Below are positions 9,618 to 60,315 of a DNA stretch of 64,000 nucleotides, one piece after another. The DNA comes from Patescibacteria group bacterium (GTDB taxonomy: Bacteria > Patescibacteriota > Minisyncoccia > Moranbacterales > GWC2-37-73). Numbering within the stretch: the first letter of the stretch is position 1; each line of letters opens with the position of its first letter. The stretch spans positions 73,927 through 137,926 of the forward strand of contig JAKLIO010000001.1 in the NCBI GenBank assembly GCA_022709565.1, given 5' to 3'. The position numbers and the translations under genes are program-made. Under the pieces are notes generated by a model that did no database searches, was not told where the DNA came from, and worked only from the letters and a program-made list of their open reading frames with translations.

Positions 9618-10511
9618 TTAAACGTCAATAGCCTCTTTTTTTCTGTTTACAGCACGTAGCAAGCGGGTGACCGGCGCGAAGCTTTGGCGATGAATCTCGC
9701 AAGGTCCATATTTGGAAAGCGCGTCCATATGCATTTTAGTTCCATAACCTTTATGTTTGTCAAAACCATACTGCGGATATTTAGCATGCATTTCCATCAT
9801 TATTCGGTCCCGCGTCACTTTAGCAATGATGGAAGCCGCGGAAATTGATTTCACGATTTTGTCACCGCCCACCACCGCCTTTTGTTCCATGGAAAAATTT
9901 GGAATTATCTTGTTTCCATCAACTAGAATTATGTATCTCGTATCTTGTATTTGGTATTTAGTATTTTTAAATTCTTTGTCATTTTGATTTTGGAATTTAT
10001 TTGTCATTGGCAATTTGTCATTTGTCATTTCTCTTTTTAGGGAGACTACCGCTTTTTTCATCGCCAAGAAACTTGCTTCCAGAATATTGATTCGATCGAC
10101 TGTTTCATGATTGCAGAGTCCCACTCCGACATGAAAATTTTCATGAATAAAATCAAAAACCTTTTCCCGCTGTTTTTCGGAAAGTTTTTTGGAGTCTCGG
10201 ACCAACTCCCACATATTAGTATCTGGTATTTGGTATCTAGTGTTTGGTGTATTTTCTTCGGTTTGATTATTTGAACCTTGGTCATTGGTTATTGTTTGTA
10301 TCTTGTTGCTTGGTGATTGGTTATTGCGAAGGAGCACTGCTGCTGCCACTACTGGTCCGCAAAGCGGTCCGCGCCCGGCTTCATCCACTCCGATCACAGC
10401 ATCGAAGCCCTGTTCCAAGAGCTCTTTTTCTAAGTTAAATGTCGACCCCGCACTAACTTTGCGGTTTTTTGGCTTGTTTTCTTTATTGGTTGTTATTTCT
10501 TGTTTCTGCAT
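9618..10511 (-). CDS. rnhB: Ribonuclease HII, with two low-complexity insertions
   Basis: VIGVDEAGRGPLCGPVVAAAV and GGDKIVKSISAASIIAKVTRDRIM are the RNase HII hallmarks. There are Asn/Gln/Thr-rich insertions encoded by tandem nucleotide repeats at about 9975-10030 and 10205-10325. Confidence 0.85.
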   Translation of the reverse strand: MQKQEITTNKENKPKNRKVSAGSTFNLEKELLEQGFDAVIGVDEAGRGPLCGPVVAAAVLLRNNQSPSNKIQTITNDQGSNNQTEENTPNTRYQIPDTNMWELVRDSKKLSEKQREKVFDFIHENFHVGVGLCNHETVDRINILEASFLAMKKAVVSLKREMTNDKLPMTNKFQNQNDKEFKNTKYQIQDTRYIILVDGNKIIPNFSMEQKAVVGGDKIVKSISAASIIAKVTRDRIMMEMHAKYPQYGFDKHKGYGTKMHMDALSKYGPCEIHRQSFAPVTRLLRAVNRKKEAIDV

Positions 10512-13895: not shown

Positions 13896-14233
13896 ATTGA
13901 TTTATTATACCACAAAAACTGGCTCTTTTATTTTTTTCCAAACCATGCTAGCATTGAGTATAATAACTTATCTTGCAAAACCCAGCGGCCAGTCCCCGGG
14001 AGATGAAGATAACACAAGAATATGCAAAAAATTTATTCCTATAATTATATTTTCTGAACTACTTTGACAGTGGTTTTTATTTTTGTTTAAAATGTCAAAA
14101 TCCCAATTTCCAATAACAAATAAATTTCAAAATCCAAAGTTCAAATTTTTGATATTTAGTCATTTGGTTTTGATTGGAAATTTGTCATTTGATATTTGTC
14201 ATTAAAACCAATATTTATTTCCCAAAACTTTCT

Positions 14234-25718: not shown

Positions 25719-27230
25719 TTATTGATATGTTTCTTTAAACTCTTTAATTGCTTTTTCTAAAACTTTTATCACATCGTCGCTCAATTCTTTCTTTTCACTG
25801 ATCAATTTGACAACATCTTTTGCCTGCGCATCTAAAAATTTATGAAAATCATTTTCCCATTGTTTGATTTCTTCCACTGGCACATCATCCACAAAACCAT
25901 TTGCCAAAGCATAGAGAATTGCGACTTGATGTTCCACTGTCATCGGTTCGTATTGCCCTTGTTTCAAAATTTCTACCGTTCGGCGCCCGCGTTCAATTTG
26001 AGCCTTGGTTTTTTCATCCAAATCTGATCCGAATTGAGCAAATGCTTCGAGTTCTCTAAACTGCGCCAAATCCAATTTCAGTTTGCCGGCTACTTTTTTC
26101 ATGGCTTTAATCTGCGCGCTGGATCCCACTCGGGAAACTGAAATTCCCACATTCAATGCCGGTCTGACTCCTTTGTAGAATAAATCTGATTCCAAAAATA
26201 TCTGTCCGTCAGTGATAGAAATAACATTAGTCGGAATGTAGGCCGAAACATCTCCGGCTTGCGTTTCAATAATTGGAAGTGCTGTCATCGAGCCACCACC
26301 AAAATCTTCATTCAGTTTCGCACTCCTCTCCAGAAGGCGTGAGTGCAGATAGAAAACATCTCCAGGATAAGCTTCGCGTCCAGGTGGACGTTTCAAAATT
26401 AAAGAAATTTGTCGGTACGCCCAAGCATGACGAGAAAGATCATCAAAAACAATCAGCACGTCTTCACCTTTGTCCATGAAATATTCTCCCAACGCGCAAC
26501 CAGAATAGGGCGCAATATATGAGAGCGCCGCACTGTCTGATGCGCCGGCAATGATGATGGTTGTATATTCCATAGCGCCAGCTTTTTCCAATTCACCCAA
26601 GATGCGCGCAATTTTTGATTCTTTCTGTCCGACAGCCACATAGATGCATTTCATATTCTGTCCTTTCTGATTGATAATTGTGTCAATCGCAATCGCAGTT
26701 TTACCGGTTTGGCGGTCACCGATTATGAGTTCTCTTTGTCCGCGCCCGATTGGAATCAAAGCATCAATGGCCTTAATACCTGTTTGTACTGGCTGATTCA
26801 CGGATTTTCTAGTAATGACCCCCGGCGCAATTTTTTCCACTGGATAATATTTGTCCGTTTTAATATCTCCTTTAGCATCAACTGGAATTCCCAACGGATT
26901 AATAACTCGCCCCATCATTGCTTCAGAAACAGGAATAGAAAGAATTTTCCCGGTCGCTTTCACTTCGTCGCCTTCTTTGATGCCGATAAAATTTCCCAGC
27001 ACCATCACGCCGACTCGATCTTCTTCGAGATTAAGCGCTACTCCGATTTCGCCACCGGGAAATTCCACCATTTCCGAAGCCATGATGTCAGAAAGTCCGC
27101 TGATGCGAGCCACGCCATCACCCACTTCCACAACCTTGCCGACTTTTTCCGTCGTCACTTCGGTTTTGAAGTTTTCAATCTGTTTTTTAAGCTGTTCGAC
27201 AATAAAATCTTTGTTCATAATTTTCAGCAT
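25719..27230 (-). CDS. atpA: F1 ATP synthase alpha subunit
   Basis: [20 protein letters not shown] Walker A. 503 aa. Confidence 0.95.
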
Positions 27231-30201: not shown

Positions 30202-31116
30202 TTATAAAATATCTAGCGATAATTTGGCATTCTGTGTTGTTTTTTCAGCCACTTCTGCCAGGGGAATATTTTTCACCGTCGCGATTTTTTCCGCCACCAG
30301 TTTCACGAAAATCGGTTCATTGCGCTCGCCTTTATGCGGGACGGGTGTCAAATATGGGCAGTCAGTTTCAATAACGATATTTGCAAGATCAATTTCCTTG
30401 ATCAAGCGATCATAACTTTCACTATAAGTAATGATGCCATTAATCCCAATTTTGTAGCCCATTTCAATGAATTTATTGGCAGTTTTATGACTCCCGACGA
30501 AGCTATGCACAATTCCTTTCCTTGCAACTGAATATTTCTGCAAAATTTCCAAAAGATCGTCATACGCATCCGTTCGGGTGTGAACGAGCTCCTTGCGAGA
30601 CTTTACGCCCCAGCAGTGCAATACTATCGGCTTGTTCACTTCATTAGCCATTTTAATAAATTTTATCAAAACTTCTTTTTGCTGTTTTTTTAACTCTTCA
30701 ATGTTATCGCCTTCATCAAAGTGATGGTAGTCCAACCCAACCTCCCCAATCGCCACCACTTTTTCATCCCGAGCCAGTTCCAGATATTTTTCATATTCAA
30801 ATTCTTCGCCTTTGGTTTTTATTTCCCCGCCTCGCGTCGACAAGCGGTCTCCGCGAGTCGAGGCGGGCACTTCATCCAACTCTCCCGGATCATTATATTT
30901 AAAAGCTCCCGCTTTGAGATGCACTGGATGAATTCCGATTGCAGCAAAAATGCCAGTTTCAAATTTGTGCGCATATTCAACCGCCCGCTGGCTGGTCGAA
31001 TATTGCGAACCGACATTCACAACAAAAACGCCCTCGGCGAGGCATTTTTTGAGAACTTCTTCTCCGTCTTCCTTGAAAGCGGAAAAATTCACGTGAGCAT
31101 GAGAATCGAAAAACAT
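30202..31116 (-). CDS. tatD: TatD-family metal-dependent hydrolase/DNase carrying an in-frame insertion
   Basis: MFFDSHAHVNF start, ...IGIHPVH... and AIGEVGLDYHH motifs. The insertion of about 25-30 aa (PASTRGDRLSTRGGEIKTKGEEFEYEKY) is partly encoded by a GC-rich palindrome at 30826-30872. Confidence 0.85.
   Translation of the reverse strand: MFFDSHAHVNFSAFKEDGEEVLKKCLAEGVFVVNVGSQYSTSQRAVEYAHKFETGIFAAIGIHPVHLKAGAFKYNDPGELDEVPASTRGDRLSTRGGEIKTKGEEFEYEKYLELARDEKVVAIGEVGLDYHHFDEGDNIEELKKQQKEVLIKFIKMANEVNKPIVLHCWGVKSRKELVHTRTDAYDDLLEILQKYSVARKGIVHSFVGSHKTANKFIEMGYKIGINGIITYSESYDRLIKEIDLANIVIETDCPYLTPVPHKGERNEPIFVKLVAEKIATVKNIPLAEVAEKTTQNAKLSLDIL
30826..30872. repeat. GC-rich palindromic element, copy 1. 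It lies inside the tatD coding sequence, in frame.
   Basis: CCCGCCTCGcgtcgacaagcggtctccgcgagtCGAGGCGGG. It is about 90% identical to the copy at 55918-55965, and its GC content is far above the local about 35%. Confidence 0.6.
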
Positions 31117-31583: not shown

Positions 31584-33005
31584 CTATTTTATCCGCTGGA
31601 AAAGCGGCTCGACTTGCTTTGTTTCCAGAGCTTTTTTGATCTTTTCAGAAGTATCAGGCAAAAACGGCAGCAGCAACTGAGAAATTAGGTCTAAATCATC
31701 CAGTAATTTTTGCATTACTTCTTTAAATTTCTTTTCATTTGATTTAGCAAGTTCCCAGGGTTTATTATCTTCTATATATTTATTATCTTCCTTAATAATA
31801 TTCCATATATATTCTAATGCCTTATCTATTTGAAATTTATCCAAAAATTTTGAAATTTGGTCATTGGTCATTGAAAATTCATTGGAAATTGGAAATTGGT
31901 CATTGGTCATTGAACTTAATTTCACGGTACGTGAAATTAAGTTGCCTATTCCATTTGCCAGATCCGCATTGTATTTCTCTGTCATCCACTCCCAGCTAAT
32001 ATCCGCATCATCTCCAAAACTGTTAAGACTTAGCAAAATGTAGCGCGTTCCATCAATGCCAAATTTTTCTACCATTTCATAGGGCGAAATTACATTACCC
32101 AAAGACTTCGACATCTTTTGCCCATTGCTAGTCAAAAAACTATTGATAAAAATTTGTTTTGAAGCTGGCAAATTGACTGCCATAAGCATAGCCTGCCACA
32201 TTGCCGATTGCGGACGCAAGTTGTCCTTGCCGGCCACTTGAATCCCTGGCCACCAAGAATTAAATTTTTTCATATCATCCGGCCATCCGATTGCTGAAAT
32301 ATAATTGACCAAAGCATCAAACCAGACATACATTACTTGTTCTTCGTCGTCAGGAACCGGCACGCCCCAGGGCATTTTTTCTTTCACGCGTGAAATTGAA
32401 AAATCTTCTAAGCCCATACTAACAAAACTTTTTATTTCATTAAATCGATGCGCTGGAACGACAAAGTTAGGATTTTTTTCATATAATTCTAGCAATTTTT
32501 GCTGGAAAGCGGAAAATTTAAAAAAATAATTTTCTTCTTCCCTGATTTCAATTTCTCTGTTGGGATGCAAAGGACAGCAATTGTCAACCAATTCCGAATC
32601 TGTTTTTTCCATTTCGCAACCGACGCAATATTTTGTTTTATAATTTTTCTTATAAATATAGCCGTTATTTTTGGTTTGTCGCCAAAATTCCTGCGCTGCC
32701 TTCACGTGATGTTCATCAGTCGTGCGAATAAAATTATCAAAACTTAAATTCAGAACATTTTTCAGTTCCCTGAATTTTTCTACTTGTTGATCACAATAGA
32801 CTTGCGTATCCAATCCAAGTTCATTGGCTCGTTCAAATATTTTTGATCCGTGTTCATCCGTGCCAATATTAAAAAAAATATCGTTACCGGATAGTCTTTG
32901 AAATCTCGCCCAAGCATCTGCCCTGACGACTTCCCATGCATAACCAACATGCGGATCAGCGTTTATGTATGGCAGTGTTGTTGTAATGTAAAATTTATTT
33001 TGCAT
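31584..33005 (-). CDS. metG: Methionyl-tRNA synthetase with a low-complexity in-frame insertion
   Basis: KMSKSLGNVISP (the KMSKS motif), a Zn-knuckle CVGCEME, and an N-terminus TTTLPYINADPHVGYAWE. The tandem-repeat-encoded insertion SSMTNDQFPISNEFSMTNDQISKF is at about 31845-31915. Confidence 0.9.
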   Translation of the reverse strand: MQNKFYITTTLPYINADPHVGYAWEVVRADAWARFQRLSGNDIFFNIGTDEHGSKIFERANELGLDTQVYCDQQVEKFRELKNVLNLSFDNFIRTTDEHHVKAAQEFWRQTKNNGYIYKKNYKTKYCVGCEMEKTDSELVDNCCPLHPNREIEIREEENYFFKFSAFQQKLLELYEKNPNFVVPAHRFNEIKSFVSMGLEDFSISRVKEKMPWGVPVPDDEEQVMYVWFDALVNYISAIGWPDDMKKFNSWWPGIQVAGKDNLRPQSAMWQAMLMAVNLPASKQIFINSFLTSNGQKMSKSLGNVISPYEMVEKFGIDGTRYILLSLNSFGDDADISWEWMTEKYNADLANGIGNLISRTVKLSSMTNDQFPISNEFSMTNDQISKFLDKFQIDKALEYIWNIIKEDNKYIEDNKPWELAKSNEKKFKEVMQKLLDDLDLISQLLLPFLPDTSEKIKKALETKQVEPLFQRIK

Positions 33006-40335: not shown

Positions 40336-40591
40336 ATTGGAAGATGTTATTACCTAAATAAAGCAAAAACGGGCGTTCACCCGTTTCAACTCTATCTATT
40401 GTAATATATCCATTATACACCCATTTAAAGGAAAAAGCAAGACCTGTCGCTCGCGAGCGACAGGTCGAGACCTCTCCCTATTATTTTTACACAAGCGCGA
40501 AGCGCTAATCGGCAAAGCCAGTGTAAAGTTAGTGCGAAGCAATACCTGCCATTAGTAAGTGTTGGTCCATACCACAATTAAATGTATTTTT

Positions 40592-55087: not shown

Positions 55088-55137
55088 TTTTGATTTATGC
55101 TCCGCGACCAGGACTCGAACCTGGAACCAATTGATTA

Positions 55138-55741
55138 CACATTATCTCTTTGTTTCCAAAAAGGGTGGACTATATCATTCCCACTCTTTTATAAAAGGGC
55201 GGGATGAGGCGCTTCCTGGGATTAAAAATCCAAGTACTCTCTTGCGAGATAGTCTCTGAACCTTCCCTAAAAGGGTTTGGCTGCTGATTACCATAATTTC
55301 TGCTGAGAAATTTTAGGCTTCCAGTCCCGATATTATCAATTTTGTAATTGAATAAAACCGAGATCCCATTTTATTGGGACAATTCACCTCATTCTTCACT
55401 TCCAAATTTCTTTGGAAGGCTGCGAATATTGTTGTGCAATTCCCTATGGCAATTCGCGCACACAAGAATACATTTGTCAATTTCATTTTTTATTCTTTCC
55501 CAACTGCGAGTTAAACCATCTTGGGAAATTGCAAAATCCTTTTTTGAAGAATCATTATGATGAAATTCTAATGCATCACTGCAACGATCATAACCACAAA
55601 GTGCACATCTACCACCTCCGTATTGAACTGCCATTTCTCGAAGTTTTCTTCGTCTTTTCGAAACAGCTTTGATCATATACTCTCGGCGGTCAGCATATTT
55701 TCGGGTTTCCTTCATATTTTTTTAAATAAAGGATGTGTACC
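55138..55741 (-). mobile_element. Group I self-splicing intron carrying an HNH homing endonuclease gene
   Basis: The intron 3' region carries the catalytic-core consensus elements R (GGTTCAGAGACTATC) and S (AATGATATAGTCC), giving P7 pairing GACUA/UAGUC, and a Q-like AATCAGCAGCCAAACCC. The intron ends in G and the 5' exon ends in U. The first 330 nt hold an HNH ORF. Confidence 0.7.
55389..55715 (-). CDS. HNH homing endonuclease (intron-encoded)
   Basis: CALCGY...LEFHHNDSSKK...N...CILVCANCHRELHN is the HNH/His-Me finger with two CxxC zinc knuckles. 108 aa. Confidence 0.85.
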   Translation of the reverse strand: MKETRKYADRREYMIKAVSKRRRKLREMAVQYGGGRCALCGYDRCSDALEFHHNDSSKKDFAISQDGLTRSWERIKNEIDKCILVCANCHRELHNNIRSLPKKFGSEE

Positions 55742-55815
55742 ACAGTCAACTGCTCTACCATTGAGCTATCGCGGAATATTAAGTTGTAAAAAATTGCTTT
55801 TTAAGGCAACAAGGG

Positions 55816-55861: not shown

Positions 55862-55885
55862 TATATAAAAGCGCCCCGGGAGGGG
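55862..55885 (-). terminator. Rho-independent terminator downstream of rpoD
   Basis: On the minus strand: GCGCCCCTCCCGGGGCGC followed by TTTTATATAT. Confidence 0.6.
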
Positions 55886-55917
55886 CGCATTATTGGAAAT
55901 TAGAAATTTGTCATTGC

Positions 55918-55965
55918 CCGCCTCGCATCGACGAGCAATCGTCTCTGCGAGTCGAGGCGGGGAAA
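55918..55965. repeat. GC-rich palindromic element, copy 2 (intergenic, just downstream of the rpoD stop)
   Basis: CCCGCCTCGcatcgacgagcaatcgtctctgcgagtCGAGGCGGGG. It is a paralogue of the copy at 30826-30872 and is preceded by a TTTGTCATT-family repeat. Confidence 0.6.
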
Positions 55966-55978
55966 TTGCGCGAAGCGC

Positions 55979-57421
55979 TTAGTAGTCTTTCAGCTTGCCA
56001 ATTGTCCTGTTCTGTCTGATCTTTTCCAAGGCCTTGGCTTCAATTTGGCGGATACGTTCGCGGGTAACGCCGAATTCTTTGCCCACCTCTTCCAAAGTAT
56101 GCGTGACGCCGTCTTCCAAACCGAAACGGATCTTGAGAATTTTCTGTTCACGCGGAGTCAGCTCCCGCAAAACTTCACCAACATGATTTTTAAGCAATTT
56201 CCTGGAAGCCACTTGATGCGGCATAACTGTTTCCGTATCTTCAATAAAATCTCCCAACACGCTGTCATCATCGCTATCGCCGACAGAAGTTTCAAGCGAT
56301 ACTGTCTCCTGCGAAATTTTTTGGATGTGTCTTATCTTATCGACATCCAAATCCATTTCAGAAGCTATTTCTTCCGCTAGCGGTTCGCGTCCCAATTCCT
56401 GCACTAATCTTCTGGTTATCTGCGTATACTTGTTGATTGTTTCCACCATGTGCACTGGAATCCTGATCGTTCTGGATTGATCCGCCAAGGCGCGCGTAAT
56501 GGCCTGGCGAATCCACCAAGTCGCATAAGTTGAAAATTTGAAACCTTTTCGGTAATCGAATTTTTCCACGGCGCGAAAAAGTCCTATGTTGCCTTCCTGA
56601 ATCAAATCCAAAAGCGAGAGATTATGGGAACGGCCCACATATTTCTTGGCAATGCTGACAACCAGACGAAGATTGGCTTCAGTTAATTTCTGTTTTGCCA
56701 TGAGATCTCCTTTTTCGCTGGCTTTGGCCAGTTTGACTTCTTCTTCAGTTTTAAGCAGCGCCACCCGTCCAATTTCCCGAAAATACATCTGAACCAAATC
56801 GGAAGAACTGTCTTCTATTCCTTCGCCCAAAAGCGCATCGGCAGTCTTGTCTTTTTTGCTCTTTTCATATATTTCAACTTCTTTGTCCGTGTCAATTTTG
56901 AGCATATCGTCAGAAACGACAATTTTCACTCCGGCAGTTTCCAGCTGTTCATACAGATTTTCCAGTTCAGCAATCTCTTCTTCAACATCAGGAATAAGAT
57001 TAATTATTTCATCCTCCGTCACAAAGCCGCGCTGCTTGCCACGCGCAATGAGTTCCGCGATTATATCAATCTTTTCCGGAAATTCTCCCTGGATTTCTTT
57101 GGCTATTTTTTTCTTGCGGACAACTGGTTGTTTTTTAGAAGATACTTTTTTAGGTGCTGTTTTTTTCTTCACGCTGGCAGTTTTCTTCTTGGCGATTTTT
57201 TTAGCTTTCTTAGGGAAAGGCTTTCTTGCTTTTGTCGGTTTAGCGATCTTCTTTTTTTTCATTTTTTTCACAAGGTTATTTTTTTTATGATTTTTATTTT
57301 TTCCTGCGCCAACGGAAAACTTTCGGACAGCTTTCTTTCCGACTTTTTTAAGCGGCTTCTTTTGCTTTTTTTTCATTTTTTTAGAATAAAGAGTGAAGAT
57401 TTTATTATAAACAAACACCAA
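55979..57421 (-). CDS. rpoD: RNA polymerase primary sigma factor (sigma-70) with a Lys-rich N-terminal extension
   Basis: Region 1.2/2 ([60 protein letters not shown]), region 4 ([26 protein letters not shown]), and the classic dnaG-rpoD gene order. Confidence 0.9.
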
Positions 57422-59257: not shown

Positions 59258-59371
59258 AACTAAAGTCCTTTTATATTCAGATTAGATAACTTTAGCAAAA
59301 AAGGCAAATTGCTTATATCTTTAGATAAAAAACGCCCCCACGAGGAGGCGCCATGATTTATTTTTTATCAT

Positions 59372-60010: not shown

Positions 60011-60031
60011 CCCGCCCAAAGCGGAAAGGGG
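60011..60031 (-). other. Duplicate of the 3' terminal about 20 nt of tRNA-Ser (att-like direct repeat), 217 bp from the intact gene
   Basis: gcggaaagggggagattcg at 60012-60030 is identical to 60229-60247 (the tRNA-Ser T-stem and acceptor 3' strand). The intervening 200 bp are GC-rich with three tandem palindromes. Confidence 0.5.
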
Positions 60032-60228
60032 GAGATTCGGCTTCGACTAAGTTTTTGCCGTCGCAAAAACTTGTCTAGCCACCGCCTCGCGGTTTTGTCT
60101 ACTGACAAAACATCGCTCCGGCGTTCTCATCCCCACGCGACGCAAGCAGTTGCGTCGCTCTTTTCCTAATTTCATTTTGTTTTGTTAAGAACTAACTGTG
60201 TCATTCAAACATCTGCTCCTGCTCAGGG

Positions 60229-60315
60229 CGGAAAGGGGGAGATTCGAACTCCCGATACCGTTTCCAGTATGCCACCTTTCCAAGGTGGTGCACTCGACCA
60301 CTATGCGACCTTTCC
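60229..60315 (-). tRNA. tRNA-Ser (anticodon GGA), type II
   Basis: GGAAAGG...CCTTTCC acceptor stem, U8, anticodon arm CCACC-UUGGAAA-GGUGG, variable hairpin ATACtggaaacgGTAT, T-arm GGGAG-TTCGAAT-CTCCC, and G73. Confidence 0.8.

What the first reader, a model, noticed from the sequence alone, without database searches (positions are those of the whole stretch)
30826..30872. GC-rich 45 nt palindromic element occurs in frame inside tatD and again downstream of rpoD
Two near-identical (about 90%) palindromes, CCCGCCTCG...CGAGGCGGG with a second internal stem, occur at 30826-30872 and 55918-55965. They are strongly GC-rich in an about 35% GC genome. The first copy sits within the TatD coding sequence and is read through as ...PASTRGDRLSTRGG... 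without breaking the frame. It extends a loop that is about 25-30 aa shorter in canonical TatD/YcfH proteins. The second copy is intergenic, next to the rpoD terminator, and is preceded by a TTTGTCATT-family repeat. This looks like a small mobile palindromic element (REP/MITE-like) that can insert into coding sequence and be tolerated as a peptide insertion. Alternatively it may be an RNA-level structure.
Basis: seen in the sequence. Interest (0 to 1): 0.65.

Follow-up and report, generated by a model that had tools for sequence, protein, structure and literature searches.

The report
Mobile hairpin repeat of CPR bacteria
The two GC-rich palindromes are copies of a roughly 40-base mobile hairpin element found across the ultra-small 'candidate phyla radiation' bacteria; it drops precisely into genes, adding 12-15 tolerated amino acids, and it also sits directly in front of many small GIY-YIG nuclease genes parked at tRNA genes.

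Summary
There are two oriented, imperfect palindromes: 30826-30867 (42 nt, in frame in tatD) and 55917-55961 (45 nt, between the rpoD stop and its terminator). The pattern gives 2 hits against 0 in shuffles.

Both are recent, precise insertions. The closest relatives (TatD 86-87% identical, RpoD 97%) lack exactly the 42 and 45 nt, and there is no target-site duplication.

A truncated scan found the element in at least 77 low-GC assemblies of Patescibacteria (Moranbacteria, Parcubacteria, Saccharibacteria, Gottesmanbacteria and others). About 60% of copies lie inside long ORFs, in all six frames. Of these, 85% have lengths that are multiples of three.

The main new result concerns 80 metagenome loci chosen only for encoding a small (about 80 aa) single-domain GIY-YIG protein. 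In 34 of them the element lies 10-53 nt upstream of that gene and nowhere else. It interrupts a duplicated tRNA 5' end, and an intact tRNA follows the gene.

The closest known system is the Ssn nuclease / hairpin-repeat (NTS/SRM) pair described in 2025. The element fails the published SRM motif and, unlike NTS, is mostly intragenic.

Verdict: a new variant of a known kind. Whether the GIY-YIG nuclease moves the element is inferred, not shown.

The parts
30826..30867 (+). Copy 1 of the hairpin element (42 nt). The F orientation is on the + strand. The tatD mRNA strand carries the R orientation, read in frame 0 as PASTRGDRLSTRGG (TatD residues 84-97).
   Evidence: A precise 42-nt insertion relative to L117 and L118. 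It lies in a low-confidence loop (residues 75-96) of the AlphaFold model.
55917..55961 (+). Copy 2 of the hairpin element (45 nt, F orientation on the + strand). It is intergenic, 17 nt downstream of the rpoD stop on the minus strand.
   Evidence: A precise 45-nt insertion relative to L201 and L203.
30202..31116 (-). tatD-family hydrolase gene, host of copy 1.
   Evidence: Pfam PF01026, 9.9e-70. Alignment A2 of 34 homologues.
55979..57421 (-). rpoD (primary sigma factor). Copy 2 lies in its 3' untranslated region.
   Evidence: Pfam Sigma70 r1.1, r1.2, r2, r3 and r4.
55866..55888 (-). Intrinsic-terminator-like hairpin (GCGCCCC TCCC GGGGCGC plus TTTT) separate from the element. It is also present in relatives that lack the element.
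55907..55915 (+). TTTGTCATT unit abutting copy 2. It is absent from the empty allele, which reads TTGGTAATTA at this position. One flank is therefore locally diverged next to the insertion.
26663..26664 (.). Empty site in the window. The orthologous gene in L005 carries a 45-nt copy exactly here (CTG|45 nt|TCC).

Best explanation
The two palindromes are solo copies of a 36-45 nt, GC-rich, oriented hairpin element (here called PAL) that is mobile at the DNA level and shared across Patescibacteria (CPR). Shown: it inserts precisely, without target-site duplication, and preferentially at G^T(A) junctions. These junctions lie in genes, in intergenic short-repeat arrays and in the loops of other hairpins. 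Shown: inside genes, the copies that persist have lengths that keep the reading frame; the one case modelled here, TatD, sits in a low-confidence loop. Such copies are translated as 12-15 aa inserts. Shown: PAL is also the 5' module of a gene cassette. The cassette reads: tRNA 5' fragment interrupted by PAL, then an approximately 80-aa single-domain GIY-YIG nuclease ORF, then an intact tRNA. Inferred: this GIY-YIG protein is an Ssn-like nuclease specific for single-stranded DNA hairpins. It would recognise PAL folded as ssDNA and would be responsible in trans for spreading or maintaining solo copies such as the two in this window. Inferred: the copies in tatD and behind rpoD have no host function. 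They are passengers tolerated in a surface loop and in a 3' UTR.
For: - **Reality and precision.** The pattern gives 2 hits against 0 expected. The filled-versus-empty comparison is exact for copy 1 and copy 2. About a dozen other orthologous pairs also show clean gaps of the core with no duplication. The window itself is the empty allele at 26664 and in atpG.
- **Family.** Identical 42-mers sit in unrelated genes of different genomes.
- **Translation filter.** 75 of 127 copies lie in stop-free ORFs of at least 150 aa, in all six frames. 64 of these 75 have lengths that are multiples of three, against 28 of 52 elsewhere (Fisher p 2e-4). The TatD insert falls in a low-pLDDT loop.
- **Target.** The junction is G|T or its complement A|C in 56 of 128 copies.
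- **Oriented hairpin.** The slipped pairing register shows covariation at 11-16' (G-C 64, A-T 7, C-G 2) and at 16-21' (C-G 51, T-A 5).
- **GIY-YIG link.** The link was first seen in loci picked for PAL: 10 copies lie 4-75 nt upstream of GIY-YIG ORFs. It was then tested on 80 metagenome loci picked only by GIY-YIG similarity. 34 carry PAL, all 10-53 nt upstream of the ORF and none elsewhere. 64 of the 80 have a tRNA at the ORF end.
- **The proteins.** All 8 ORFs tested are PF01541 GIY-YIG. The nearest solved relatives are UPF0213, then SLX1.
- **Nuclease and palindrome go together.** Nucleases next to the same palindrome family are more alike than those next to different families (55% against 49% identity, permutation p<0.0005).
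- **Precedent.** Ssn nucleases bind and cut their own flanking hairpin repeats as ssDNA (PMC11893778).
Against: - No GIY-YIG gene lies in the 64-kb window. I could not examine the rest of this genome.
- The Moranbacteria assembly with most solo copies (PCRW01, 10 loci) showed no GIY-YIG gene in the loci retrieved.
- The association could arise from target preference alone, because the duplicated tRNA D-loop contains a G^TA site.
- PAL fails the published SRM motif (0 of 154) and lacks the conserved GTCWY 5' flank that Ssn needs for cutting.
- PAL occurs in both orientations relative to the GIY-YIG gene.
- No GIY-YIG enzyme is known to catalyse insertion, and Ssn has only been shown to cut.
- The correlation between nuclease and palindrome family is confounded by phylogeny and by tRNA type.
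Confidence: 0.6

Rival explanations
1. PAL is an independent selfish palindrome mobilised by some other, unidentified machinery, for example repair-templated copying as proposed for mitochondrial GC clusters. Its presence in front of GIY-YIG genes would only reflect its preference for G^TA sites in hairpin loops, such as the D-loop of the dead tRNA fragment that every such cassette carries.
For: The G^T(A) junction bias holds for solo copies too. Several unrelated palindrome families occupy the same position in the cassettes. PAL lies in either orientation relative to the ORF. One flank is locally diverged next to the insertions, as expected for co-conversion from a donor.
Against: In the 34 PAL-positive loci, of about 2.5 kb on average, PAL is never anywhere except directly upstream of the ORF (chance about 1e-55). 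At least 54 of the 80 cassettes carry one of three recognisable GC-rich palindrome families at that spot, and some of the other 26 carry other palindromes. Nuclease similarity tracks palindrome family. The Ssn precedent is a direct protein-hairpin interaction (PMC11893778).
Confidence: 0.25
2. PAL plus the GIY-YIG nuclease is a host-domesticated system, like NTS/SsnA in Neisseria. The nuclease would cut incoming or replicating single-stranded DNA at PAL hairpins to modulate natural transformation or recombination. On this view the copies matter to the cell and are not pure passengers.
For: SsnA/NTS modulates transformation in N. meningitidis (PMC11893778). From general knowledge, CPR bacteria carry competence machinery and depend on DNA uptake. 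The PAL ends are nearly invariant across CPR phyla.
Against: Copy positions are not conserved between close relatives. Density is low, 2 per 64 kb here. Most copies sit inside housekeeping genes in any frame, whereas NTS is 2% intragenic. No experiment bears on this.
Confidence: 0.1
3. PAL acts at the RNA level, as an mRNA stabiliser, processing site or terminator-like hairpin, for example protecting the 3' end of the rpoD message.
For: The predicted RNA hairpin is stable. Copy 2 lies in the rpoD 3' UTR just before the terminator.
Against: The orientation relative to transcription is mixed (R 40, F 35). No T-run follows the element, and the real terminator is present in relatives without PAL. 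No Rfam family matches. The length filter for multiples of three shows that coding copies are read through.
Confidence: 0.04
4. The sequence is ancestral TatD coding sequence, or a chance palindrome or assembly artefact.
For: None beyond the fact that the insert is in frame.
Against: The nearest homologues lack it exactly. The same sequence occurs in 77 independent assemblies and in unrelated genes. Shuffles give 0 hits.
Confidence: 0.01

Closest known systems
Ssn nucleases with their NTS/SRM hairpin repeats (Chenal et al. 2025, Nat Commun, PMC11893778)
   Same: Both have a small (about 80-96 aa here, 94 aa for SsnA) single-domain GIY-YIG protein whose gene is directly flanked by a 20-50 nt hairpin-forming repeat. 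The same repeat is dispersed through the genome. The repeat is asymmetric and therefore oriented. Different nuclease clades go with different hairpin families (paper read).
   Different: PAL does not fit the published SRM degenerate motif (0 of 154). It has no conserved GTCWY 5' flank. It lies only on the 5' side of the gene. It is about 60% intragenic, against 2% for NTS. The cassette is welded to a tRNA gene with a duplicated tRNA 5' end, which the paper does not mention ('tRNA' occurs 0 times in its text). The hosts are CPR bacteria. Assignment of the proteins to cd10448 could not be tested, and the nearest solved relatives are UPF0213.
Rickettsia palindromic elements (RPE; Ogata et al. 2000, Science; cited from memory)
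   Same: Palindromic repeats that insert in frame into protein-coding genes of a reduced, AT-rich genome and are tolerated as extra peptide segments, also in RNA genes.
   Different: RPEs are about 100-150 bp and restricted to Rickettsia. PAL is 36-45 nt, is shared across several CPR phyla and has a linked nuclease gene. There is no sequence similarity.
Yeast mitochondrial GC clusters, e.g. GC42 (Wu and Hao 2015, PMC4478555)
   Same: A 42-nt GC-rich palindrome proliferating in an AT-rich genome. Structure is conserved through loop-biased substitutions. Distribution between strains is sporadic, and co-conversion-like flank tracts occur.
   Different: GC42 has an AG target duplication and is mostly intergenic. 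PAL has no duplication and is mostly intragenic. No dedicated nuclease gene is known for GC42.
REP elements with RAYT (Y1/HUH) transposases
   Same: Short imperfect palindromes, dispersed through the genome and recognised as hairpins by a dedicated single-strand-specific nuclease whose gene they flank.
   Different: No Y1 transposase is linked to PAL. There is one decayed IS200 copy in 0.9 Mb, 2.5 kb from a PAL and with its own unrelated hairpin. REPs are extragenic and, from memory, start with GTAG. PAL starts with CCCG and is mostly genic.
MITEs such as Correia elements
   Same: Non-autonomous, with terminal inverted repeats and occasional in-frame or regulatory insertions.
   Different: MITEs make target-site duplications and derive from DDE transposons. 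PAL makes none and is far shorter.

Membership tests
Ssn/SRM system | A small single-domain GIY-YIG protein of about 94 aa | tested here: met
   The 8 ORFs next to PAL are 79-96 aa and all hit PF01541 (best E 1.2e-19) with no other domain. The Y5/Y16/E62 spacing in the L071 protein (my residue count on the sequence) resembles SsnA Y6/Y17/E64.
Ssn/SRM system | The protein belongs to the CDD clade cd10448 (GIY-YIG_unchar_3) | not testable with these tools
   No CDD library or bona fide SsnA sequence was available. The best solved relatives are UPF0213 proteins 1ywl (1e-9) and 1zg2 (6e-9), then SLX1.
Ssn/SRM system | A hairpin repeat lies in the flank of the nuclease gene | tested here: met
   34 of 80 loci chosen only by protein similarity carry PAL 10-53 nt upstream of the ORF. 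Many of the rest carry another GC-rich palindrome at that position. None has PAL on the 3' side.
Ssn/SRM system | The repeat matches the SRM search motif HGTCWY N0-2 YYVSBRH N0-5 WNVSBRG N0-2 RNCYNB | tested here: not met
   0 of 154 PAL copies with 15-nt flanks match, and there are 0 matches in the window.
Ssn/SRM system | A conserved non-palindromic 5' flank gives orientation and is needed for cutting | tested here: not met
   GTC[AT][CT] occurs within 12 nt upstream in 4 of 146 copies (F side) and 3 of 146 (R side). Orientation is instead encoded inside the core, by the extra TCGAG in the 3' arm.
Ssn/SRM system | ssDNA-specific, strand-specific cleavage next to the hairpin | not testable with these tools
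   This needs purified protein and oligonucleotides.
REP/RAYT | A Y1 (HUH) transposase gene flanked by the repeats | tested here: not met
   tblastn with an IS608 TnpA sequence (recalled from memory, checked as PF01797 at 1e-42) against 0.9 Mb of PAL loci plus the window gave one frameshifted hit in L101, not adjacent to PAL.
REP/RAYT | Extragenic location | tested here: not met
   75 of 127 copies lie inside ORFs of at least 150 aa.
MITE | Target-site duplication flanking terminal inverted repeats | tested here: not met
   No duplication in any filled/empty pair.
Rickettsia palindromic elements | In-frame insertion into protein-coding genes | tested here: met
Rickettsia palindromic elements | Element length of about 100-150 bp with RPE consensus sequences | tested here: not met
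   PAL is 36-45 nt (57 nt at most). The RPE lengths are from memory.
Intrinsic terminator | A GC-rich hairpin immediately followed by a T-run | tested here: not met
   No T-run follows either copy. A separate terminator lies 28 nt downstream of copy 2 and is also present in PAL-free relatives.
CRISPR or other regularly spaced arrays | Regularly spaced direct repeats | tested here: not met
   The window has two copies 25 kb apart. Loci carry single or irregularly spaced copies.

The most novel reading that the evidence does not exclude
PAL and its neighbouring approximately 80-aa GIY-YIG nuclease form a previously unrecognised kind of mobile element. In it, an Ssn-like ssDNA hairpin nuclease, rather than a transposase or recombinase, drives duplication-free copy-in of a 40-nt hairpin. 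The autonomous form homes into tRNA genes by carrying a replacement tRNA 5' end and borrowing the tRNA's own U8-A9-G10 as its stop codon. The non-autonomous form seeds in-frame peptide insertions into housekeeping proteins across the whole candidate phyla radiation.
Probability: 0.3. Interest if true: 0.85.

Novelty: new variant of a known kind. Interest (0 to 1): 0.68.

Why it matters
- **An open question in the Ssn work.** The Ssn paper (2025) left open what Ssn nucleases and their hairpin repeats do outside Neisseria, and whether the repeats are mobile. Here a hairpin repeat tied to an Ssn-like gene shows dozens of clean presence/absence polymorphisms with exact boundaries. That makes the question of whether the small GIY-YIG nuclease moves its hairpin directly testable.
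- **Annotation of CPR proteins.** The result explains one source of the short, odd, GC-rich peptide inserts in CPR proteins (PASTRGD..STRGG, PPRVDE..PRVEAG, RLASTS..ESRR). This matters for annotation, alignment and structure prediction of these proteins.
- **A new gene architecture.** It exposes a recurrent arrangement that I did not find described in six literature searches on CPR, palindromic elements and GIY-YIG/Ssn: tRNA 5' fragment plus palindrome, GIY-YIG ORF, intact tRNA.
- **A lineage marker.** A sequence conserved across CPR phyla yet absent from 2.9 million viral contigs is a useful marker. Several assemblies labelled Gammaproteobacteria or Bdellovibrionales carry it. At least one of them, CAZFCX01, is clearly Moranbacteria-like.

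Tried and rejected
- **A D-loop intron in tRNA genes.** I first thought copies flanked by tRNA-like sequence were insertions into live tRNA genes. Excising the core in silico and running ARAGORN restored a tRNA spanning the junction in only 2 of 129 cases. Rfam showed intact tRNAs 170-310 nt away instead. The flanks turned out to be duplicated tRNA 5' fragments of GIY-YIG cassettes.
- **REP/RAYT or IS200/IS605.** There was one decayed, unlinked TnpA hit.
- **A transposase between paired copies.** The ORFs between copies in L062 and L030 are ordinary genes such as a response regulator, CorA and YidD.
- **A phage vector.** The pattern gave 0 hits in IMG/VR.
- **Rfam.** Nothing at either site, at gathering or E<=1 thresholds.
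- **Replication-strand bias.** Orientation against local GC skew split 66 to 48, which is not significant.
- **SRM motif and GTCWY flank.** Both tests were negative.
- **A second repeat family in TatD.** The other TatD insertion (GVKSRKELVHTRT) was found only in TatD orthologues.
- **Literature.** Searches combining CPR or Patescibacteria with palindromic or RPE terms, a search for the 9-mers themselves, and a search for GIY-YIG with tRNA gene and palindromic terms found no description of this element.
- **Technical failure.** The search for related loci with the 8-protein alignment failed because no stretch was conserved enough. A single protein was used instead.
Full report
**Observation**

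The window holds two copies of one element. Copy 1 is CCCGCCTCGCGTCGACAAGCGGTCTCCGCGAGTCGAGGCGGG at 30826-30867. Copy 2 is CCCGCCTCGCATCGACGAGCAATCGTCTCTGCGAGTCGAGGCGGG at 55917-55961.

- The terminal 9-mers with a 20-40 nt spacer occur twice, against zero times in 100 dinucleotide shuffles.
- A profile HMM built from 99 distinct copies from other genomes finds only these two sites (E about 1e-12) and no decayed copies.
- By my count the copies are 76% and 69% G+C, in a window that runs at 35-44%.
- They fold to about -27 kcal/mol, z -3 to -4.
- Copy 1 lies in a minus-strand ORF that is a TatD-family hydrolase (Pfam 1e-69) and is read as PASTRGDRLSTRGG.
- On the minus strand, copy 2 lies 17 nt after the rpoD stop codon and 28 nt before a separate GC hairpin with a T-run.

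**Both copies are recent, exact insertions**

In an alignment of 34 TatD homologues, the two closest (87% and 86% identical) lack exactly the 14 residues. Their DNA shows a clean 42-nt gap. The window reads GAAGTG|42 nt|GAAATAAAA, against GAAGTA|GAAATAAAA and GAAATG|GAAATAAAA, with no duplicated target. A more distant TatD (P0012/L120) carries an independent 39-nt copy three codons upstream in the same loop.

An AlphaFold model of the window's TatD (mean pLDDT 84.9) places residues 84-97 in a low-confidence loop, 75-96, between two strands.

For copy 2, the loci of the closest RpoD relatives (97% and 90% identical) lack exactly the 45 nt. The window reads CAATTTC|45 nt|CAATGACAAATTTCT, against CAATTTC|TAATTACCAATTTCC. 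The terminator is present in both forms.

The window itself is the empty allele at two places where relatives are filled: position 26664 (against L005) and atpG (against L117).

**The family**

The query was CCCGCCTCGNNTCG-N8-30-CGANNCGAGGCGGG. It returned 116 loci, of which 4-5 are chance matches in high-GC genomes. The rest are 127 copies in 77 low-GC assemblies.

These assemblies are Moranbacteria, Parcubacteria, Saccharibacteria, Gottesmanbacteria, Woesebacteria, Kaiserbacteria, Zambryskibacteria, Buchananbacteria and Paceibacterota. Some carry labels such as 'Gammaproteobacteria' or 'Bdellovibrionales'. At least one of those, CAZFCX01, encodes TatD and RpoD that are 86-90% identical to the window's, so its label is wrong.

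- Identical 42-mers sit in unrelated genes of different genomes.
- About a dozen further orthologous filled/empty pairs show an exact gap of the core with no duplication, in genes and between genes. One example is L089 against L100, which are 89% identical.
- The pattern is absent from 2.9 million viral contigs.

**Anatomy**

The element is an imperfect palindrome with a fixed internal asymmetry, so it has two orientations. F is CCCGCCTCGCGTCGAC...GCGAGTCGAGGCGGG, and R is its complement. The profile scores the F strand at 43 bits and the R strand at 4. Lengths cluster at 36, 38, 39, 42 and 45 nt.

The 3' arm carries an extra TCGAG (CGAG-T-CGAG). If the arms are paired symmetrically, positions 10, 11, 15 and 16 are almost always mismatched. 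If the 3' arm is slipped by five, the helix is continuous and covaries. Pair 11-16' is G-C 64, A-T 7, C-G 2 and G-T 12. Pair 16-21' is C-G 51 and T-A 5.

Positions 1-9 and 12-14 were fixed by the search pattern, so they say nothing about conservation.

**Coding context**

- 75 of 127 copies lie in stop-free ORFs of at least 150 aa.
- All six frames are used. R0 (PASTRG..STRGG) occurs 28 times, F1 (PPRVDE..PRVEAG) 17 times and F2 (RLASTS..ESRR) 12 times.
- Orientation relative to the coding strand is balanced.
- 64 of the 75 have lengths that are multiples of three, against 28 of 52 for the rest (Fisher p 2e-4).

This is what a filter for translatability would produce. It argues against removal of the element at the RNA level.

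**Target**

The junction is G|T, or A|C on the other strand, in 56 of 128 copies.

Intergenic copies often split a unit of a genome-specific AT-rich short repeat, for example ATTCG^TA or ATTAG^TA. Others sit in the loop of another inverted repeat, for example ATTCCGGACT|PAL|TGATCCGGAAT. The same kind of flank carries the core in either orientation. This suggests that the core can invert in place between its 9-bp ends.

In the closest filled/empty pairs, the 10-15 nt on one side of the insertion are unusually diverged. I leave both points unexplained.

**The GIY-YIG connection**

Some non-coding copies had tRNA-like flanks. Excising the core did not restore tRNAs. Rfam placed intact tRNAs 170-310 nt away.

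A tblastn search for transposases found none linked to the element. It drew attention to L101, where a 96-aa ORF starts 8 nt after the element. That ORF and its relatives are single-domain GIY-YIG proteins (8 of 8 hit PF01541). They lie 4-75 nt downstream of the element in 10 cases.

The common layout, 5' to 3', is:

1. a short upstream flank plus tRNA nucleotides 1 to about 25, interrupted by the palindrome at a G^TA in the D-loop or at position 7/8;
2. the ORF;
3. the same flank and the complete tRNA.

The ORF usually runs into the tRNA and stops at its U8-A9-G10 (TAG) or at a D-loop TAA. Tandem cassettes occur in L105 and L049.

Those loci had been selected for the element. I therefore fetched 80 metagenome loci using only one GIY-YIG protein as bait (43-89% identical).

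- 34 of them carry the element. In every case it lies 10-53 nt upstream of the ORF and nowhere else in loci averaging 2.5 kb. The chance of that placement is about 1e-55.
- 64 of the 80 have a tRNA at the ORF end.
- Many of the remainder carry a different GC-rich palindrome at the same spot. CCTGCCTGCCGGCAGGCAGG occurs in 12 loci, and a CCCGCCTAGACTCGA... family occurs in 8.
- Nucleases that share a palindrome family are more alike than those that do not (55% against 49% identity, p<0.0005). Phylogeny and tRNA type confound this comparison.

The window has no such gene. Two close relatives have an 85-aa GIY-YIG gene inserted just upstream of dnaG, where the window and L201 have none. The gene is therefore itself optional in this lineage.

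**Comparison with what is known**

The closest described system is the Ssn family (PMC11893778, read). SsnA of N. meningitidis is a 94-aa single-domain GIY-YIG protein. It binds a 28-nt hairpin repeat (NTS) only as single-stranded DNA and only on one strand, and it cuts a few nucleotides upstream. Ssn genes are flanked by such repeats (SRM, 20-50 nt) in 71% of cases. The authors note the resemblance to IS elements and to REP/RAYT, and they leave the role outside Neisseria open.

PAL works like an SRM in its architecture, but it is not an SRM as defined:

- the published degenerate motif matches 0 of 154 copies;
- there is no conserved GTCWY flank;
- PAL lies only 5' of the gene;
- about 60% of copies are intragenic, against 2% for NTS;
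- the tRNA-welded cassette is not mentioned in the paper.

Whether the CPR proteins fall in cd10448 could not be tested. Their nearest solved relatives are UPF0213 proteins, then SLX1 and I-TevI. The family is very large, with at least 7,709 hits, and is annotated only as 'GIY-YIG nuclease family protein'.

Two functional analogues exist: Rickettsia palindromic elements (in-frame insertions, cited from memory) and the 42-nt yeast mitochondrial GC cluster GC42 (PMC4478555). PAL shares neither sequence nor insertion signature with either.

**Mechanism, shown and inferred**

Shown:
- precise, duplication-free gain of the core;
- a G^T(A) junction bias;
- survival in ORFs of copies that preserve the frame;
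- location in a low-confidence loop in TatD;
- tight physical linkage of the element to a small GIY-YIG gene.

Inferred:
- the GIY-YIG protein recognises PAL as a single-stranded hairpin, by analogy with Ssn;
- it supplies the nicking step for spread;
- the two window copies are passengers without host function.

The main rival is that the linkage only reflects PAL's taste for D-loop-like G^TA sites. A domesticated role in controlling transformation, as in Neisseria, cannot be excluded.

**Verdict**

The finding is a new variant of a known kind, a hairpin repeat with an Ssn-like nuclease. Its unusual features are CPR-wide conservation, frequent in-frame residence in housekeeping genes and a tRNA-fused cassette.

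Noticed in passing
window 55100-55775, minus strand: A tRNA gene, probably tRNA-Asn(GUU) by reading of the exons, is split in its anticodon loop. The interruption is a group I intron (Rfam RF00028, 55146-55423, 55.8 bits) carrying a 108-aa HNH-like ORF (55389-55715; Pfam HNH only E 0.03). Its own promoter-like sequence and terminator flank it. Neither ARAGORN nor the Rfam tRNA model called the tRNA.
   Followed up: partly
window 9975-10029, 14156-14203, 21733, 55907; also 31857-31911: TTTGTCATT is a short dispersed and tandem repeat (8 exact copies; 76 with at most 1 mismatch against 50 expected). A related TTGGTCATT occurs four times inside the metG ORF, where it encodes repeated MTNDQ. Other CPR genomes have their own equivalents (ATTCGTA, ATTCGCA, TACTAAT), and these are frequent insertion sites of the hairpin element.
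   Followed up: partly
window 30571-30609, minus strand (TatD residues 170-182): There is a second lineage-specific 39-nt insertion in tatD (GVKSRKELVHTRT). It is weakly palindromic (GGCGT...ACGCC), absent from many homologues and doubled in two. It falls in a second low-pLDDT loop (172-180). No other copies were found in 0.9 Mb of loci, so it is not shown to be a repeat family.
   Followed up: partly
alignment A2 (TatD homologues P0011, P0015, P0017, P0041, P0055, P0112 and others): Other TatD proteins carry different short inserts that look like translated GC-rich palindromes or simple repeats: LEAKPPLGGLASKFS, EPARNATHASASLHSVAGG, ESASSAGT and PLNPLNP runs. TatD loops seem to be a repeated landing place for several element families. 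The DNA of these homologues was not examined.
   Followed up: no
window 40441-40466: A perfect 26-nt GC-rich palindrome, GACCTGTCGCTCGCGAGCGACAGGTC (predicted -22 kcal/mol), unrelated in sequence to the element studied. Its context was not examined.
   Followed up: no
window 60229-60315 and about 60020-60050, minus strand: The 3' end of the tRNA at 60229-60315 (GAATCTCCCCCTTTCCGC) is repeated about 190 nt downstream. This looks like an att-type duplication around a small inserted segment.
   Followed up: no
L165, L166, L176-L179, L183, L187, L190, L191, L193, L200; L131, L133, L145, L148, L149, L152: Other palindrome families occupy the same position in front of GIY-YIG genes: CCTGCCTGCCGGCAGGCAGG, and CCCGCCTAGACTCGA...TCTAGTCGAGGCTGG. 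They interrupt a duplicated tRNA D-arm, mostly of tRNA-Arg, Asn or Gln.
   Followed up: partly
L202 390-647 and L204 348-605, against window 59258-59330: Close relatives carry an 85-aa GIY-YIG gene inserted between the promoter region and the start of dnaG. The window and L201 lack it. This copy has neither a palindrome of family 1 nor a tRNA next to it.
   Followed up: partly
L080 about 885-1160: A Saccharibacteria tRNA-Thr-like sequence carries the element in its D-loop and a different palindrome (CCCTACGGGAGATCACCCGTAGGG) in its T-loop. It is not called as a tRNA and may be a decayed copy.
   Followed up: no
L034 332-677, L049 2191-2377, L114 7582-7755: In some cassettes the space between the palindrome and the tRNA holds a 170-330 nt structured non-coding stretch in place of the GIY-YIG ORF. 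Its nature is unknown.
   Followed up: no
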